Source of the DNA: a phage | Direction: 5' to 3' (one strand) | Assembly: GCA_017760785.1 (NCBI GenBank) | Contig: GCA_017760785.1_4320.1 | Length of the DNA stretch: 46,166 nucleotides | Shown: piece after piece, positions 12,721-44,730 of the stretch | Numbering within the stretch: the stretch's first letter is position 1 | How the letters are laid out: the number at the start of each line of letters is the position of its first letter | Program-made: the position numbers and the translations under genes | The notes under the pieces: generated by a model | The model's input: only the letters and a program-made list of their open reading frames with translations | Told to the model about the DNA's origin: nothing | Databases searched by the model: none

Positions 12721-13020
12721 TTCCGCGGAAATTCATCCACGCCGTACCACGCCAGGTTACGCCATAGTTACACTATAATATCTATATATAACAACCTCTT
12801 AGTATTATTATTATTATTATAAATATTACTATGTATATCATGTAACCAATATGCCGGAGGGGGTCGATAGTTTTTTCTATGAAAATGACAATTTCTATAT
12901 ATATAAGGATAGGTGTATACCCTCCGCGTTTTCCGCGGAAATTCATCTACAGGCAAATTACACGAGCTATAGCTGGGCTGGCACGCCAAAAAACGTAACC
13001 AGCGCCAATATAAACACAAG
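12721..13020. repeat. AT-rich divergent control element, copy 1
   Basis: 17-bp direct repeat TTCCGCGGAAATTCATC at 12721 and 12931; (TAT)6 at 12803-12820; ~70 percent identical to 39790-40110. Confidence 0.7.
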
Positions 13021-13096
13021 ATAACACTTGATAACGTGTAGACGTGTGTTATTATGGGTTCACCTTAACGAATGGGAACCAATCAGGAGTAATAAA

Positions 13097-14145: not shown

Positions 14146-14188
14146 TAGCATGAATTGGTAAATCTTCCGCGAGTCCATTTGCTATAGT
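14146..14188 (+). promoter_or_regulatory. variant motif promoter (TAGCATGAATTGGTAA, 21 bp, TATAGT)
   Basis: same geometry before 14216 ORF. Confidence 0.45.
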
Positions 14189-14215
14189 GGACTCATTGAA
14201 GCGAAACAACAAATC

Positions 14216-15754: not shown

Positions 15755-15797
15755 TAGCGCGAATTGCTAAAACAGAATCGGGGTAATTTGGTATAGT
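15755..15797 (+). promoter_or_regulatory. motif-type promoter (TAGCGCGAATTGCTAA, TGgTATAGT)
   Basis: CCATCGAAACGAA leader follows. Confidence 0.6.
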
Positions 15798-15827
15798 TAC
15801 CCCATCGAAACGAACGAGGAATCAGAA

Positions 15828-39677: not shown

Positions 39678-39711
39678 TTTTAAATCCTCTATCGTTGCTT
39701 GTGTGACCAAC

Positions 39712-39751
39712 TATACCAGGTTTTGCGGATTAGTTTTAGCTATTCGTGCCA
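39712..39751 (-). promoter_or_regulatory. variant motif promoter (TGGCACGAATAGCTAA, 20 bp, TGgTATAGT)
   Basis: minus strand; spacer shares AATCCGCAA with 38961-39003 promoter. Confidence 0.5.
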
Positions 39752-39789: not shown

Positions 39790-40110
39790 CTCATCCGCGG
39801 AAAATGATATACGCGATATTACGCCAATTTACGCATTGGTTACATTAAAATATCTATATATATCAACACTTTACTCTTATTATTATTATTATATATATTA
39901 CTGTGTATATCATGTAACTACTTCTATAGAGTGTTCCGGTTATAATTTTCTAATATGTACATTTATACAGTATCTAGCGACAAGCATACCAATGCACCAA
40001 CCCCCGCGAGAAATGGTATACACTATATACACACTGGTTACATTGAGCTATGCCTCGGATGGGATGCCAAAAAGCGTAACTAACGCCAATATCTACACAT
40101 AATTACAATG
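39790..40110. repeat. AT-rich divergent control element, copy 2
   Basis: shares ATATCTATATATA, (TAT)5 at 39878-39892, TATTACTGTGTATATCATGTAAC and GCCAAAAAGCGTAAC...CGCCAATAT blocks with copy 1. Confidence 0.7.
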
Positions 40111-40135
40111 ATTCACACGTAAGTCTGAATCAACG

Positions 40136-40179
40136 ATTGGATAAACCAATTGGACTGTCTATGGTGCTGAATATATAGT
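40136..40179 (+). promoter_or_regulatory. alternative palindrome ATTGGATAAACCAAT upstream of TATAGT
   Basis: perfect 5-N5-5 inverted repeat at same distance from -10 as TAGCA palindromes. Confidence 0.45.
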
Positions 40180-40218
40180 TAACCCATCGAAAGCAAACAA
40201 CCACAGAGAGATACAGAA

Positions 40219-40413
40219 ATGACCTACTACATTATCAAAGAGAAAAACAACGCACTGTTCTGCGACTGCTACTTTGGTGGCCCAGCCGGATACACCACAG
40301 ATAAGAACGAGGCTGACAGATTCGAGACAAAAGAAAGAGCCAGAGATTTTCTGACTGGTTACCTCACTGAGGAAGATTTAAAGTCGGTTAAAGTAGTTAA
40401 GGTTAAGGGGTGA
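40219..40413 (+). CDS. hypothetical protein
   Basis: 64-aa ORF after ATTGG palindrome promoter. Confidence 0.45.
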   Translation: MTYYIIKEKNNALFCDCYFGGPAGYTTDKNEADRFETKERARDFLTGYLTEEDLKSVKVVKVKG

Positions 40414-40416
40414 AAC

Positions 40417-40578
40417 ATGAAGATAAAGGTGTTTATAACTGAAGAAGAGATGCAGCAGCTAGGCGCTAATACGGACGTTGATGTTGCTAAAATCATAACG
40501 TATGATCTTAAAAACAGTGATTGCTATGATGAGTTTCCATATCCTGACTTTCGAGTTATTGTTAACATAGAGGATTGA
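40417..40578 (+). CDS. hypothetical 53-aa protein
   Basis: hand-translated ORF between track ORFs. Confidence 0.35.
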   Translation: MKIKVFITEEEMQQLGANTDVDVAKIITYDLKNSDCYDEFPYPDFRVIVNIED

Positions 40579-40581
40579 TAT

Positions 40582-41547
40582 ATGTCTTTTAAAGTCTACA
40601 CGCGAGAAGAGTTAAGCAACGAGGATTACCACTCAGAGCAAGACCACATCTCCGGTAGCTCGCTTGTTGAGATTATCCAGGGCTCACCAGCTAAGTGGAA
40701 ATTTAAACAGCGCAATAGCGATAGCAAGGCTCTTAAGTTTGGCACGCTGAGTCACATGTATATCCTCGAAGGTGACATGTTTGATAAAGAGTATCTTAGA
40801 GCAACAGACCTTGATGCGATTGAGGGCTTAATTACAAGCCAGGCTGGATTATCGGCAGCGCTTAAAAAAGTTGGTGTAGCCGGCACATCCGGGAAGGGCT
40901 ATAGCGAGCTAGTAGAGATGATGTATCGCTCTGGTGAGGATTGGGATGTTAAATGGCTAATTGAGCAGCAGGAAAGCGCTCAGGCTCTTGTAGAGGGTAA
41001 GGAGCTGGTTAGCGCAGCAGACTATGACAAGGTTGTAGCTATGCGTGAAGTTCTTTGCAATATCCCGGCATATAATGCAATCGTGAACAGTGAGACGGCT
41101 CAGAAAGAGTTATCGATCTTCGGTGAGATTCTAGGTGTTGGGGTTAAGATCCGAATCGACCATGTTGATGTTATTGATGGCGTTGTCAGGATCACAGATT
41201 ACAAAACGACCGCAGATGCAAGCCCTGAAGGATTTGGTAAGTCAGCATTCAATCACGGATATCTTGCAAAAATGGCACTTCAGCGCGATCTGTTTGTGAA
41301 GGCATTCAACGAGAAACGAAAGGTTGTTGTAGGATTACTGGCGCAGGAGAAGGTAGAGCCATATTTACCAATGCTGTACACCTTGACGGACGAACAGCTA
41401 CGAATTGGCCGCTTGCAGTATCTTGAGGCGCTTGCCACATACAAGAAGTGTAAGGAGCTAGATATCTGGCCTGGATATTCGAACGGCATTGCAGAGCAAG
41501 AGCTATTAGTTCCTGAGTGGGCGATTAAACAATATAGAGAGATATAA
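40582..41547 (+). CDS. PD-(D/E)xK recombination exonuclease
   Basis: RIDHVDVIDG...ITDYKT motif; adjacent to erf and ssb. Confidence 0.6.
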   Translation: MSFKVYTREELSNEDYHSEQDHISGSSLVEIIQGSPAKWKFKQRNSDSKALKFGTLSHMYILEGDMFDKEYLRATDLDAIEGLITSQAGLSAALKKVGVAGTSGKGYSELVEMMYRSGEDWDVKWLIEQQESAQALVEGKELVSAADYDKVVAMREVLCNIPAYNAIVNSETAQKELSIFGEILGVGVKIRIDHVDVIDGVVRITDYKTTADASPEGFGKSAFNHGYLAKMALQRDLFVKAFNEKRKVVVGLLAQEKVEPYLPMLYTLTDEQLRIGRLQYLEALATYKKCKELDIWPGYSNGIAEQELLVPEWAIKQYREI

Positions 41548-41548
41548 A

Positions 41549-42013
41549 ATGAACAAAGATTGCTGGCAGACTCCTTTAGAGTTATTCAAACAACTAGATG
41601 ATAAATACAACTTCGAGGTTGACGTATGCGCCAGCCAAGAAAACGCGCTTTGTGAATGTTTTTGGGCTGTAGATGATGACTGCCTGCAACAGGATTGGGG
41701 AGAAGGCAAAGGTTTTGTCTGGTGTAATCCACCATATAGCAATCCATTGCCATTTGTCGAAAAGTGCCAACAATACGGCTATGCAGTCATGCTGTTGAAT
41801 CAGGACACATCAACAAAATGGGCCAAGATAGTATTTGAAAAAGCGTCAAATGTTATACTTTTATCAGACAGGGTTAGGTTTATAAATCCAGTAACACTGG
41901 AGGTTGGTAAGTCAAATCCTAAATGCCAGATGATTGTGGTTTTCGACAAGAGTAGTAATTCTGGTGTTGATATAAGATGGTGCCCAATAAAAGAAATTCA
42001 TAAGCACATCTAA
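41549..42013 (+). CDS. dam: DNA N6-adenine methyltransferase (Dam-like)
   Basis: NPPY motif and N-terminal WQTP; 154 aa. Confidence 0.8.
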   Translation: MNKDCWQTPLELFKQLDDKYNFEVDVCASQENALCECFWAVDDDCLQQDWGEGKGFVWCNPPYSNPLPFVEKCQQYGYAVMLLNQDTSTKWAKIVFEKASNVILLSDRVRFINPVTLEVGKSNPKCQMIVVFDKSSNSGVDIRWCPIKEIHKHI

Positions 42014-42014
42014 A

Positions 42015-42057
42015 TAGCACGAATCGCTAAAGACAAAATTAAAAGGTGGGGTATGAT
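42015..42057 (+). promoter_or_regulatory. motif-type promoter (TAGCACGAATCGCTAA, TATGAT)
   Basis: after dam stop; precedes erf region. Confidence 0.5.
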
Positions 42058-42088
42058 AACCATATCAACAACAAACGAGGTTAAAGTT

Positions 42089-42163
42089 ATGAATCTTCAC
42101 CCACTTACATATATCCACATTATCGCCTGGATCGTTTTATTCATTTACTTATTCAATCGATAA
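42089..42163 (+). CDS. 24-aa hydrophobic peptide (speculative)
   Basis: hand-translated MNLHPLTYIHIIAWIVLFIYLFNR; GAGGTT SD. Confidence 0.25.
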   Translation: MNLHPLTYIHIIAWIVLFIYLFNR

Positions 42164-42174
42164 GGATTTTAAAA

Positions 42175-42825
42175 ATGCAAATTTCAGAATCGTGCAAGTC
42201 AATTTTAAGCGCACTACACACTGCTAAATCGCTATTTGCGAAGGCTGAAAAGTCTAAGCAGAACTCTCACTTAAAGAATAATTACGCAACCTTAGAAGAC
42301 GTATTGGCCGCTGTTGAGCCTGGCTTGGACGAGTGTGGCTTGGTTATGTTCCAGAGCGTGCTTGATGATGAACAAACGAATCGTTTGAAGGTTGAGACAA
42401 AGCTATTTCACGCAGAATCTGGAGAGTGGGTTAGCTTCTTAATGATTGTCCCAATTAGTAAGAATGACGCGCAAGGTTACGGCTCAGCTTTAACATACGC
42501 TCGACGCTACGGAATCACGGCGGCATTGGGACTTAGCCAGGCAGATGATGATGGCAATCTCGCCGCTAAGGGTGTTAAGGATTTCAAGCGAGAGTTGGAG
42601 AAATGCAATACTCTTGATGAACTTCGTAACGTTTGGAAGGATGCCAAGCAATCACTCGACGCGGCAGGATGGAAGGTTTTTGAACCTCACATTATCGAGC
42701 GAAAGGCAGAGATTGAGGCAAATGCAGCAATTGGCTTCAACCCAGCAACACCAAAGAGAGTCACAGAAAAAAGTAGTCATAAAGAAAAGATTGAAGTAGA
42801 ATCACAACAAATTGACACATTCTAA
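42175..42825 (+). CDS. erf: Erf-family single-strand annealing protein
   Basis: GSALTYARRYG motif; neighbours exonuclease and SSB. Confidence 0.75.
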   Translation: MQISESCKSILSALHTAKSLFAKAEKSKQNSHLKNNYATLEDVLAAVEPGLDECGLVMFQSVLDDEQTNRLKVETKLFHAESGEWVSFLMIVPISKNDAQGYGSALTYARRYGITAALGLSQADDDGNLAAKGVKDFKRELEKCNTLDELRNVWKDAKQSLDAAGWKVFEPHIIERKAEIEANAAIGFNPATPKRVTEKSSHKEKIEVESQQIDTF

Positions 42826-42866
42826 ATTTAACGGGGCTTCGGCCCCAGCAATAGAGAGATAAAAAC

Positions 42867-43292
42867 ATGCACGTAATTACTGGTCAGATTCGCCGCGCTC
42901 CATTCACTAAAGAAGGTCAGAATGCTAATGGTGCCTGGAAAATGTTTGCGGTTGATTTGAGTGAGCGATACAAAGATAAAGATGGTCAGACTCAGTATAG
43001 TAACTATCGCGCCGTCTTCTTCGCTAAAGAGTCAATGCTAGATTGGTACAATGAAGCATTTCAAGAGGGTAAAGTTGTTAGCGTTATCGCGGAGACTCTT
43101 TCTGTTGATGTTAGGGATAAGGATGGCAAGACTTACGTTACTATCAATATGAACAATCCTCGACTTGAATTTAGTCATCGAGGTTACTCGGCACCACAAC
43201 AGCAGCAGCAAGGACAGCAACAGCAACCTCAACCTCAACAGCAGAGACATCCACAACCACAGCAGCAGTTTGATTCGGATATTCCATTCTGA
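42867..43292 (+). CDS. ssb: single-stranded DNA-binding protein
   Basis: Q/P-rich linker and C-terminal DSDIPF tail. Confidence 0.8.
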   Translation: MHVITGQIRRAPFTKEGQNANGAWKMFAVDLSERYKDKDGQTQYSNYRAVFFAKESMLDWYNEAFQEGKVVSVIAETLSVDVRDKDGKTYVTINMNNPRLEFSHRGYSAPQQQQQGQQQQPQPQQQRHPQPQQQFDSDIPF

Positions 43293-43304: not shown

Positions 43305-43332
43305 TAAGGAGCCTTGTGGCTCCTTTTTTTAT
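43305..43332. terminator. bidirectional terminator between ssb and tail fibre gene
   Basis: AGGAGCC-TTGT-GGCTCCT flanked by A-rich and T-run. Confidence 0.7.
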
Positions 43333-44663
43333 TTGTTATCAATCAAACTATTAATCAATAATTTAAGTTCACCAACCTCAACCTCAAGATTTTCAATTCT
43401 TTTCTTTGCTTCTTCGCTTTCACTTATTGTCACCTTTAGTGCACAAATGGCATCTAAAAGAAGCGCGTTCTGATCAAGAACCAGCCTCTCTCTGAACTCA
43501 GAACTACCAATTTTAACTCCATCATCATCTAAGATATCATTGCCTAATGGCTCAAATGTGTGCTTCACATACTGAGGGTCTATTTTTTCTATCTGTTGAG
43601 CTATAACGCCACGCCTCTCTCTTTTCTTTTCATCATCCTTAAACTTGAATGTAACAAGTTCCATTTTTTTAATGTTATAGACAGATTGCAATCCATCATA
43701 ATTAGATATATCAGTTTTGTAGTTAATGTCAGAAGTTCCTTGCAGCGCCAAGGTTCCTCCTGATGTTGGGAAGTTTATGATATATTGCCCATTATTGTTA
43801 TCAAGATTTCTCGTTGCAAGGTAAAACCCACCAGTTGGTGATATCTCAAAAACCCTTCTAGAACCAACGACATTTGACCCCGATGATGTTAGTGTAATGT
43901 TTGTGTATTCATTACTTATACAGAAAACATTATTACATGAAACTCTACCAGTAGTTGAGACCCCTCTGAATTCAACGTTATCAGTTGTAGACAACTGTAA
44001 GTTAGACCTTGCGGCTGCTTTATCCGGTATGTCCTGGAGATTCTTATCTTTAGCCAGAAAGAGGTCTGGATTAATGCTGTCAGCGTAACCTTTTGCGTTC
44101 GTTTCTGATGTTTTAGCTGCGTTCTGAGATGCAAGTGCCGCCGATGCTGAGTTAGCAGCGGCAGTCTGTGAAGCAGATGCGGCATTCTTACTTGCAAGAG
44201 CTGCCGCCGCAGAACCAGCTGCCGCCGTAGCAGAATCAGCTGCCGCATTTTTGCTTGCGTCTGCCGCCGCAGCGTCAGCCGTGACTTTTTCAGTCGTTAA
44301 TTTAAATTGCTCCCAATCAAATGTTTTGAAAAAATCAATTGCTTCCGCAACCTCAGTTTCTTTTCCCTGGTAGTATCGCAGTGTTTCAGCCACATCCTGG
44401 GCCAGCCCGTCAACCGTGATTGAATCGTGAAGAAGAATGACGTACTGAGATCCGGCGGGAACTACAGCGCCGTTTGTTGTCATTACCCGCAACTCCGTAT
44501 CACTAACTATTTCAGAGATCGTACCAATGGCCCCAACGACCGTAGGAAACATGATTGTTGCGCCAGCGCGGATCAGAGACAGCCTGTTTTGCCACTTAGT
44601 TCCTACGCCAATAGCAACGCCGTTTGAAGACAGTGATGCCGTCCCAGTTCTGTAAATTGCCAT
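43329..44663 (-). CDS. tail fibre protein, possible C-terminal chaperone domain
   Basis: ATG 44663 (track start 44711 lies inside palindrome); Ala-rich repeat region; C-terminal coiled coil. Confidence 0.65.
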   Translation of the reverse strand: MAIYRTGTASLSSNGVAIGVGTKWQNRLSLIRAGATIMFPTVVGAIGTISEIVSDTELRVMTTNGAVVPAGSQYVILLHDSITVDGLAQDVAETLRYYQGKETEVAEAIDFFKTFDWEQFKLTTEKVTADAAAADASKNAAADSATAAAGSAAAALASKNAASASQTAAANSASAALASQNAAKTSETNAKGYADSINPDLFLAKDKNLQDIPDKAAARSNLQLSTTDNVEFRGVSTTGRVSCNNVFCISNEYTNITLTSSGSNVVGSRRVFEISPTGGFYLATRNLDNNNGQYIINFPTSGGTLALQGTSDINYKTDISNYDGLQSVYNIKKMELVTFKFKDDEKKRERRGVIAQQIEKIDPQYVKHTFEPLGNDILDDDGVKIGSSEFRERLVLDQNALLLDAICALKVTISESEEAKKRIENLEVEVGELKLLINSLIDNK

Positions 44664-44688
44664 AATGTAAACCCCATATTTTGATTTA

Positions 44689-44704
44689 TAGCACGAATTG
44701 CTAA
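44689..44704 (-). promoter_or_regulatory. palindrome copy TAGCACGAATTGCTAA, 25 nt from tail-fibre ATG
   Basis: no room for standard -10 plus leader; may indicate leaderless start or other role. Confidence 0.35.
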
Positions 44705-44730
44705 AATTCATTCTACCATCTTCCAGGCAA

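What the first reader, a model, noticed from the sequence alone, without database searches (positions are those of the whole stretch)
40136..40179. A second perfect palindrome ATTGG-N5-CCAAT at the same promoter position
Upstream of the 40219 gene the TAGCA palindrome is absent, but ATTGGATAAACCAAT (40136-40150) is a perfect inverted repeat with the same 5-N5-5 geometry and the same distance (38 vs 37 bp start-to-start) to a TATAGT hexamer. The leader motif CCATCGAAAGC follows. Same architecture with a different half-site suggests a second regulator of the same family, or a specificity switch at this one promoter.
Basis: seen in the sequence. Interest (0 to 1): 0.45.

Follow-up and report, generated by a model that had tools for sequence, protein, structure and literature searches.

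The report
Host-type PdhR/LldR operator in phage promoter
The small palindrome is real and conserved in front of the recombination genes of an Rtp-like (T1-family) coliphage, but it looks less like a site for a second phage regulator than like the binding site of the host's pyruvate/lactate-sensing repressors PdhR/LldR, which would tie this phage operon to host metabolism; this is untested.

Summary
The window is a complete Rtp-like Drexlerviridae genome. ATTGG-ATAAA-CCAAT (40136-40150), TATAGT (40174-79) and CCATCGAAAGC are exactly as described. A perfect 5-N5-5 palindrome is not rare in itself: 57 in the window against about 51 expected. What matters is conservation. In 16 relatives the half-sites are invariant apart from two single changes, while spacer positions 1-2 vary. 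The block TCAACG-ATTGG-nnAAA-CCAAT-TGGAC survives even where the adjacent promoter spacer was replaced. It is unique in each genome, diverged beyond recognition in one sub-lineage, and absent from T1 and TLS.

Unlike the roughly 20 TAGCA promoters, which have no -35, this promoter has TGGACT-17-TATAGT. No phage gene tracks the site. The genome has one recognisable HTH regulator, with no paralog.

The 17-mer GATTGGATAAACCAATT matches the E. coli PdhR box AATTGGTnnnACCAATT at 12/14. Relatives score 12-13/14, and most are 13/14 identical to the lldP O1 operator AATTGGCCCTACCAATT.

Best reading (about 0.4): a host FadR-subfamily GntR (PdhR/LldR-type) operator abutting the -35 of the recE-erf-ssb operon promoter. 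Binding, sign of regulation and the transcription start are all untested.

The parts
40135..40151 (.). 17-bp PdhR/LldR-type box GATTGGATAAACCAATT (candidate operator).
   Evidence: 12/14 match to the published PdhR box AATTGGTnnnACCAATT (PMC7660256; scan). Relatives score 12-13/14. Most relatives (GATTGGCAAAACCAATT) are 13/14 identical to E. coli lldP O1, AATTGGCCCTACCAATT.
40136..40140 (.). Left half-site ATTGG (the weaker half; pos1 G and pos7 A/C/T deviate from the consensus).
   Evidence: Invariant in 15 of 16 group-A sequences; phiA2-1 has ATTTG.
40141..40145 (.). Spacer ATAAA. The first two positions are free and the last three (AAA) are invariant. The last A is the A of the ACC core.
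   Evidence: Variants ATAAA, CGAAA, CAAAA, TGAAA, AGAAA.
40146..40150 (.). Right half-site CCAAT. Together with its flanks (AACCAATT) it forms a perfect consensus half.
   Evidence: Invariant in 15 of 16; metagenome locus L024 has TCAAT.
40130..40155 (+). Conserved block TCAACG-ATTGG-nnAAA-CCAAT-TGGAC.
   Evidence: Of its 26 columns, 22 are invariant among 16 sequences, against 48% invariant columns over 40000-40225. The block is retained in DTL and TR2, although the sequence between -35 and -10 is completely different there.
40151..40156 (+). -35-like hexamer TGGACT (alternatively TTGGAC, 40150-55, with an 18-bp spacer). It abuts or overlaps the box by 1-2 bp.
   Evidence: Promoter scan gives TGGACT-17-TATAGT, 9/12. 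xTGACT/TGGACT is kept at the same place in every lineage examined: group B has ATGACT and T1 has TTGACT.
40174..40179 (+). -10 hexamer TATAGT.
   Evidence: Conserved in most relatives.
40186..40186 (+). Inferred transcription start (A, 7 nt after the -10). It places the box at about -51 to -35, with its centre at about -43.
   Evidence: Inference from the hexamer position only. No TSS data were found.
40184..40194 (+). Leader motif CCATCGAAAGC, shared in the form CATCGAAA with several TAGCA promoters and with the T1 recE leader.
40219..43292 (+). Downstream operon: 64-aa and 53-aa ORFs, RecE-like exonuclease VIII (40582-41547), Dam-like methyltransferase (41549-42013), Erf-like annealing protein (42175-42825) and SSB (42867-43292). 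An internal TAGCA promoter lies at 42015.
   Evidence: Rtp annotation.

Best explanation
The palindrome is the core of a 17-bp operator of the PdhR/LldR type. This is the box recognised by host FadR-subfamily GntR repressors that sense pyruvate or L-lactate. It sits immediately upstream of, and touches, the -35 hexamer of an ordinary sigma-70 promoter (TGGACT-17-TATAGT) that drives the phage's recombination/replication operon (recE-like exonuclease, Dam, Erf, SSB).

Inferred mechanism: a host PdhR or LldR dimer bound at about -51 to -35 interferes with sigma region 4 / alpha-CTD docking. Alternatively it acts as a class-II-type activator. Either way, promoter output would follow the host's pyruvate/lactate pool, because the effector releases the protein from DNA.

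Shown: the sequence, its conservation, the promoter hexamers, the match to verified E. coli operators, and the absence of a phage GntR homolog. Inferred: that PdhR or LldR binds here, the direction of regulation, and the TSS.
For: 1. Identity of half-sites and of spacing. The published PdhR box is AATTGGTnnnACCAATT (PMC7660256). I verified the E. coli K-12 boxes in sequence: pdhR AATTGGTAAGACCAATT, and lldP O1 AATTGGCCCTACCAATT and O2 AATTGGCAGTGCCACTT.
   - The window scores 12/14, Rtp 12/14 and Veterinaerplatzvirus 12210I 13/14 (GATTGGTGAAACCAATT).
   - Known PdhR targets score 11-14/14: ndh 11, grcA 12, cyoA 13.
   - Most relatives carry GGC at position 7 on the left with ACC on the right, the same asymmetry as lldP O1.
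2. It scores 13/14 with a perfect GGTnnnACC core.
3. The conservation pattern is typical of a dimer operator: half-sites fixed and centre free. It is kept across recombination breakpoints (DTL, TR2).
4. The site is single-copy in every genome, and no phage gene co-varies with it. There is no PdhR homolog in the phage. Pfam finds no second DNA-binding protein in the 40 proteins scanned.
5. The first gene downstream is not an HTH, wHTH or RHH protein in a moderate-confidence model (pLDDT 72.6), and it has no significant fold match.
6. The related AATTGGTAtTACCAATT operator is used by Pseudomonas LldR, so the motif is characteristic of this regulator group.
Against: 1. There is no binding or expression data.
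2. A match of 12/14 or better to the PdhR consensus turns up somewhere in 26% of random 46-kb sequences. The match was found after the fact by recalling known motifs, so the statistical support rests on its coincidence with a conserved promoter block.
3. The core said to be needed for tight PdhR binding, GGTnnnACC, is imperfect in the window (GGAtaaACC) and in most relatives (GGC).
4. There is no independent recurrence. The recE promoters of T1 and TLS have no such box, and group B phages (AugustePiccard, JeanPiccard, FP, two metagenome contigs) do well without it.
5. The left half-site may be a relic of an ancestral -35 region. T1 TCGATTGACTAAAC resembles window ACGATTGGATAAAC.
6. PdhR operators best known to repress lie downstream of the start (pdhR), not at -43.
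Confidence: 0.4

Rival explanations
1. It is an operator for an unrecognised phage-encoded dimeric DNA-binding protein. This is the first reader's idea in general form: an early protein that activates or shuts off this one promoter from a class-II-like position.
For: The geometry (15-bp dyad centred at about -43) is the same as that of the TAGCA sites. Most small phage ORFs have no assignable function. Conservation is operator-like.
Against: No gene's presence or divergence tracks the site across 8 whole genomes. The site is unique in each genome, so the regulator would have a single target. The only recognisable HTH protein has no paralog and is 93-98% identical in phages that lack the site. 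The adjacent 64-aa gene does not model as a DNA-binding fold and is also kept in phages without the site.
Confidence: 0.2
2. There is no dedicated regulator. The block is promoter-intrinsic: a tandem or duplicated -35 region (CGATTGGATAAAC / CAATTGGACTGTC), overlapping promoters, and an A-tract acting as a proximal UP-like element. On this reading the inverted repeat is a by-product.
For: - There is a 13-bp imperfect direct repeat (8/13). The left copy resembles the T1 recE -35 region TCGATTGACTAAAC.
- In most relatives TTGGCA (5/6 to TTGACA) lies 17 bp before TACGGT/TATGGT, which is a possible upstream promoter.
- The invariant AAA at -43 to -41 lies where a proximal UP subsite would be (established knowledge of UP elements).
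- In group B both 'ATTGG' copies changed in parallel, to ATAGG and ATATG, while complementarity was lost.
Against: The putative upstream -10 is destroyed in DTL and TR2, yet the block is intact. TCAACGATTGG is not A/T-rich like a UP element. Spacer sequence between a -35 and a -10 is normally not constrained, yet AAACCAA is invariant.
Confidence: 0.2
3. It is a chance palindrome that looks conserved only because these phages are closely related.
For: Perfect 5-N5-5 repeats occur at 1.2 per kb, as expected by chance. Relatives are 80-88% identical here. Of the non-coding columns, 48% are invariant anyway.
Against: Of the 14 consensus positions, 11 are invariant and 2 more differ in a single sequence (binomial p about 0.02 at 48% background, computed). 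The block persists next to fully replaced sequence in DTL and TR2. ES changes the site in a way that raises the PdhR-box score.
Confidence: 0.12
4. It acts as an RNA hairpin in a read-through transcript from upstream.
For: CGAUUGG/CCAAUUG can form a 7-bp stem, -7.7 kcal/mol, z = -2.4.
Against: There is no U-tract, so it is not a terminator (one search finds none). There are no compensatory changes; the two single substitutions are one-sided. Rfam finds nothing. The stem lies upstream of the predicted start of the only nearby promoter on this strand that has conserved hexamers.
Confidence: 0.03

Closest known systems
E. coli PdhR box (AATTGGTnnnACCAATT; pdhR, cyoA, ndh, grcA operators)
   Same: Same half-sites (ATTGG/CCAAT), same 5-bp separation and same flanking T at position 17. 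Scores are 12-13/14, within the range of proven targets.
   Different: Position 1 is G. Position 7 is A/C (T only in Veterinaerplatzvirus and ES), so the GGTnnnACC core is imperfect. The site lies in a virulent phage genome, upstream of the -35 rather than downstream of the start as at pdhR. Binding is untested.
E. coli LldR operators O1/O2 of lldPRD (AATTGGCCCTACCAATT / AATTGGCAGTGCCACTT) and Pseudomonas LldR operator AATTGGTAtTACCAATT
   Same: The majority phage variant GATTGGCAAAACCAATT is identical to O1 at 13 of 14 specified positions, including the GGC...ACC asymmetry.
   Different: There is a single site per genome. LldR at lldP uses two operators; its dual repressor/activator role is from my own recollection of Aguilera et al. 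2008 and was not checked here. The window itself has GGA.
E. coli UxuR/ExuR operator AAATTGGTATACCAATTT
   Same: Identical ATTGG/CCAAT half-sites and the same regulator subfamily (PMC8092373).
   Different: The spacing is N4, not N5. The phage site is one base pair longer, so it is not filed here.
TAGCA-N5-TGCTA promoters of Drexlerviridae (this genome, T1, TLS)
   Same: A 15-bp dyad starts 37-38 bp before a TAtAgT -10, with a similar CATCGAAA leader.
   Different: The half-site differs. TAGCA promoters lack a -35 and number about 20 per genome across three subfamilies. The ATTGG site is single-copy, restricted to Braunvirinae, and attached to a promoter that has a -35.
Host transcription-factor sites in lytic phage promoters (NtcA and PhoB boxes in cyanophages; own knowledge, not checked here)
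   Same: The concept is the same: a virulent phage places a host metabolite-sensing regulator's site in front of its own genes.
   Different: The host, the regulator family and the signal (pyruvate/lactate) differ. I found no report for T1-like phages.

Membership tests
PdhR/LldR-type (FadR-subfamily GntR) operator | 17-bp dyad AATTGGTnnnACCAATT (14 specified positions) | tested here: met
   Window 12/14, Rtp 12/14, 12210I 13/14, ES 13/14, ACG-M12 11/14, group B about 8-9/14. Proven targets score 11-14/14.
PdhR/LldR-type (FadR-subfamily GntR) operator | Intact core GGTnnnACC, reported as needed for tight PdhR binding | tested here: not met
   The window has GGAtaaACC and most relatives have GGCnnnACC. 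The core is intact only in Veterinaerplatzvirus and ES. GGC is, however, the form found in both lldP operators.
PdhR/LldR-type (FadR-subfamily GntR) operator | Located in a promoter region so that occupancy can affect RNA polymerase | tested here: met
   The box at 40135-40151 touches the -35 hexamer at 40151-56 of TGGACT-17-TATAGT. The TSS itself is inferred.
PdhR/LldR-type (FadR-subfamily GntR) operator | Bound by PdhR or LldR and released by pyruvate or L-lactate | not testable with these tools
   Needs EMSA, footprinting or ChIP. No published data were found.
Drexlerviridae TAGCA-type promoter | TAGCA(C)-N5-TGCTA dyad | tested here: not met
   Not present upstream of 40219 on the + strand.
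Drexlerviridae TAGCA-type promoter | Dyad starts 37 bp before the -10, and there is no -35 hexamer at 16-18 bp | tested here: not met
   The distance is 38 bp (similar), but a 4/6 -35 is present at 17 bp. TAGCA promoters score 2-3/6, with one at 4/6.
Class II activator site (CRP, FNR, lambda cI-PRM type) | Dyad centred near -41.5 to -43, overlapping or abutting the -35 | tested here: inconclusive
   The centre is at 40143, which is about -43 if the TSS is 40186. The TSS is not mapped, and a usable -35 argues against strict activator dependence.
Intrinsic terminator / structured RNA | GC-rich stem followed by a U-run, or an Rfam family match | tested here: not met
   No terminator-like site, no Rfam hit, and only a weak AU-rich stem.

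The most novel reading that the evidence does not exclude
A strictly virulent T1-family coliphage has captured the operator of the host's pyruvate/lactate sensors (PdhR/LldR). It uses the operator to gate its recombination-dependent replication operon on the host's central-carbon state. In a bolder variant, hundreds of replicating phage genomes act as a decoy that titrates PdhR and so derepresses host pyruvate dehydrogenase and respiration for the phage's benefit.
Probability: 0.3. Interest if true: 0.65.

Novelty: new member of a known kind. Interest (0 to 1): 0.42.

Why it matters
Transcriptional control in T1-like phages is almost uncharted. They have no RNA polymerase of their own, and published genome papers list only generic sigma-70 predictions.

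If the site is a working PdhR/LldR operator, it would be a concrete, easily testable case of a virulent coliphage reading host metabolic state through a host metabolite sensor. That bears on phage behaviour in the gut and in industrial fermentations, where Rtp-like phages are pests.

The site also separates this promoter from the family-wide TAGCA promoter class, which is the larger unsolved question in this genome.

If the site turns out to be only a conserved promoter-intrinsic block, the finding is ordinary.

Tried and rejected
- IHF site: AATCAACGATTGG misses the WATCAANNNNTTR consensus by spacing (read from the sequence).
- Sigma-54 promoter: TGGCA-N-TTGG has the wrong spacing, has GG instead of GC, and is absent from the window itself.
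- UxuR/ExuR operator: same half-sites but N4 spacing.
- Autoregulation by the first gene: the 64-aa product models as a beta-hairpin plus one helix, with no significant PDB fold or sequence match. The 53-aa product has no match.
- Phylogenetic profiling of all window ORFs against 4 genomes with the site, 1 with a degenerate site and 3 without: no gene co-varies.
- More diversity from IMG/VR by protein or by a pattern anchored outside the left half-site: only the known isolates came back.
- The metagenome scan gave 6 contigs: 2 with the site, 3 of the group-B type, and 1 with an inserted gene.
- T1 and TLS were checked for an independent PdhR box at the recE promoter: none.
- The Rtp genome paper is not held in the library. 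No T1-like transcriptome or TSS paper was found, and no paper links PdhR to phage promoters.
- Rfam on the intergenic region: nothing.

Full report
**What the window is.** The 46,166-bp window is a complete, permuted genome of an Rtp-like member of the T1 family (Drexlerviridae, Braunvirinae). It is about 85-88% identical at the nucleotide level to JeanPiccard, Rtp, Veterinaerplatzvirus and others. The finding lies in a 508-bp non-coding region. On one side is a leftward Dcm-like methyltransferase gene. On the other is a rightward operon: a 64-aa ORF at 40219, a 53-aa ORF, a RecE-like exonuclease VIII, a Dam-like methyltransferase, an Erf-like annealing protein and SSB.

**Checking the observation.** Every coordinate is right:
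- ATTGG 40136-40, ATAAA 40141-45, CCAAT 40146-50.
- TATAGT 40174-79, which is 38 bp start-to-start from the palindrome.
- CCATCGAAAGC 40184-94 and ATG 40219.

It is the only perfect ATTGG-N5-CCAAT in the window. The comparison set is real. TAGCA-N5-TGCTA with at most 1 mismatch occurs 21 times against 1.7 expected, and about 13 copies start 37 bp before a TAnnnT hexamer.

A perfect 5-N5-5 inverted repeat is not remarkable on its own. There are 57 in the window against 50.6 +/- 7.4 in Markov-1 random sequence, and two fall in this one intergenic region.

**Conservation.** I aligned the promoter from 18, then 16, distinct relatives. The sources were GenBank isolates, one IMG/VR contig and later two metagenome contigs.
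- In the main lineage ("group A": Rtp, SU57, T145P1, 12210I, IME253, IME542, BEK2, DTL, JulesPiccard, CEB_EC3a, A110b, TR2 and others) the two half-sites are invariant apart from two single substitutions. phiA2-1 has ATTTG and locus L024 has TCAAT.
- Spacer positions 1-2 vary (AT, CG, CA, TG, AG), while the last three bases are always AAA.
- The conserved island is larger than the palindrome: TCAACG-ATTGG-nnAAA-CCAAT-TGGAC, 40130-40155. Of its 26 columns, 22 are invariant, against 48% invariant columns over 40000-40225.
- In DTL and TR2 the sequence between the -35 and the -10 has been completely replaced, yet the island is untouched.
- ES has ATCGG...CCAAT and ACG-M12 is more degenerate.
- A sub-lineage ("group B": AugustePiccard, JeanPiccard, FP, and metagenome contigs L067 and L071) has a diverged homologous stretch (GATAGGCAcAAACGATATGACT) with no dyad.
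- T1 (Tunavirinae) and TLS (Tempevirinae) have no such site at their recE promoters.
- In every genome that has the site, it occurs once.

**The promoter differs from the TAGCA promoters.** At 16-18 bp upstream of their -10, TAGCA promoters show only 2-3/6 matches to TTGACA, with one at 4/6. TTGCTA within the dyad lies 22 bp from the -10. They therefore look activator-dependent. The 40219 promoter has TGGACT at exactly 17 bp. An xTGACT-type hexamer is kept at that place even in group B (ATGACT) and in T1 (TTGACT-16-TATAAT). So this is a normal sigma-70 promoter carrying an extra conserved element at about -51 to -35. That position assumes a start at A40186, which is inferred and not mapped.

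**Is there a second phage regulator?**
- Pfam and PHROGs scans of 40 window proteins (about 35 small or unassigned ORFs plus several with other assigned functions) find one HTH protein. It is the T1 gp23/Rtp52 homolog at 39-512 on the minus strand. It has no paralog.
- That protein is 52% identical to T1 gp23. The TAGCA dyad is shared by T1 (21 sites), TLS (20) and all Braunvirinae genomes examined (17-23). This makes it the natural candidate for the TAGCA sites, not for the lineage-specific ATTGG site.
- Profiling every window ORF against four genomes with the site, one with a degenerate site and three without it gave no gene whose presence or divergence follows the site.
- The 64-aa first gene models as a beta-hairpin plus one helix at moderate confidence. 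It has no significant structural or sequence match, and it is retained in phages lacking the site.

**The match to a host operator.**
- ATTGG/CCAAT half-sites recalled the UxuR operator. A paper confirms that operator as AAATTGGTATACCAATTT, but its spacing is N4.
- The PdhR box has the right spacing: AATTGGTnnnACCAATT. Proven E. coli targets score 11-14 of 14 (PMC7660256).
- I verified the E. coli K-12 operators directly: pdhR AATTGGTAAGACCAATT, and lldP O1 AATTGGCCCTACCAATT and O2 AATTGGCAGTGCCACTT.
- The phage 17-mer at 40135-40151 is GATTGGATAAACCAATT, 12/14. Rtp also scores 12/14. Veterinaerplatzvirus (GATTGGTGAAACCAATT) scores 13/14.
- The commonest variant, GATTGGCAAAACCAATT, equals lldP O1 at 13 of 14 specified positions, including its GGC/ACC asymmetry.
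- ES loses the simple palindrome but gains A at position 1 and T at position 7. It reaches 13/14 with a perfect GGTnnnACC core. This is what selection on the box, rather than on the pentamer dyad, would predict.
- The invariant last A of the spacer is the A of the ACC core.
- The phage has no PdhR homolog.
- PdhR is released from DNA by pyruvate and acts as both repressor and activator.

**Limits of that reading.**
- A match of 12/14 or better occurs somewhere in 26% of random 46-kb sequences. I reached PdhR after the fact. The argument therefore rests on the coincidence between a conserved promoter island and a known box. It does not rest on genome-wide statistics.
- The GGT core is imperfect in the window and in most relatives.
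- Group B, T1 and TLS lack the site.
- No binding or expression data exist.
- The left half may descend from an ancestral -35 region. T1 TCGATTGACTAAAC resembles window ACGATTGGATAAAC, and there is a 13-bp imperfect direct repeat CGATTGGATAAAC / CAATTGGACTGTC. This supports a promoter-intrinsic rival.
- An RNA-hairpin role is weak: -7.7 kcal/mol, no U-run, no compensatory changes and no Rfam hit.

**Verdict.** My estimates for what it is:

| Reading | Probability |
|---|---|
| Host PdhR/LldR-type operator abutting the -35 of the recombination-operon promoter | about 0.4 |
| Unrecognised phage-encoded binder | about 0.2 |
| Promoter-intrinsic block with no dedicated regulator | about 0.2 |
| Chance palindrome carried along by relatedness | about 0.12 |
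| RNA hairpin | about 0.03 |

A binding site is plausible, but kinship with the TAGCA system is not. In kind this is a host transcription-factor site in a phage promoter, which is known elsewhere. I found no report of it for T1-like phages or for PdhR/LldR.

Noticed in passing
Window-wide (e.g. 3022, 7048, 14878, 15755, 16531, 26658, 42015); L041 (T1); L193 (TLS): The oriented dyad aaaTAGCAC-nAAT-TGCTAaa starts 37 bp before a TAtAgT -10, with no -35. It defines a promoter class of about 20 sites per genome. The class is shared by Braunvirinae, T1 and TLS, which implies a conserved activator. The only recognisable HTH protein is the gp23/Rtp52 homolog at 39-512 on the minus strand. It is expressed from its own sigma-70-like promoter, TTGTCT-17-TACAAT, in the 513-613 intergenic region.
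   Followed up: partly
Window 15780-15803, 14172-14193; L041 around 1470-1500, 2290-2315, 39995-40025: Many TAGCA promoters carry a GC-rich inverted repeat that brackets or immediately precedes the -10 hexamer. Examples are GGGGTAA-tttgg-TATAGT-TACCCC and AGTCCA-tttgc-TATAGTGGACT. Their function is unexplained.
   Followed up: no
Window 12722-13026 and 39794-40107: The two large divergent intergenic regions are paralogous (82% and 77% identity in two blocks, same orientation). They are rich in GTAAC/GTTACA repeats, a (TTA)n run and TCCGCGGAAA. The cor-recE intergenic regions of T1 and TLS hold similar TGTAAC(A) repeats. These could be origin or iteron-like elements. The 13-kb copy is followed directly by a strong TTGATA-16-TGtTATTAT promoter (13028-13055) and a gene that probably starts at ATG 13098.
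   Followed up: partly
Window 40016-40030: A second perfect 5-N5-5 palindrome, GTATA-CACTA-TATAC, lies in the same intergenic region. It is conserved in relatives as GTATACACGATATAC and has a diverged counterpart at about 39807 in the repeated module.
   Followed up: no
Window 39710-39751 (minus strand): The Dcm-like gene has a degenerate TAGCA-type promoter on the minus strand. TGGCACGAATAGCTA (39751-39737) is followed by 21 nt and then TATAGT (39715-39710). The listed TTG start at 39710 overlaps the -10, so the real start is probably ATG 39677 (MVIWSLFDGSG...).
   Followed up: partly
Window 44689-44703: An orphan perfect TAGCACGAATTGCTA sits in + orientation with no -10 and no downstream + strand gene. 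It lies inside the 5' end of ORF 43329-44711 (minus strand), next to a bidirectional terminator-like hairpin.
   Followed up: no
L001 28260-28658 (rtp46); L006, L010, L017: Several database annotations extend the 64-aa gene upstream across the promoter and the palindrome. A 2-bp indel in the leader (window, A110b, ES, ACG-M12 and TR2 against most relatives) and the stop-bounded ORF in the window show that this stretch is non-coding.
   Followed up: yes
L009, L011, L012, L018 (JeanPiccard, A110b, TR2, BEK6): An extra gene (a homing endonuclease or a 115-136-aa ORF) is inserted between this promoter/leader and the 64-aa gene. The promoter and leader are retained up to the ATG.
   Followed up: no
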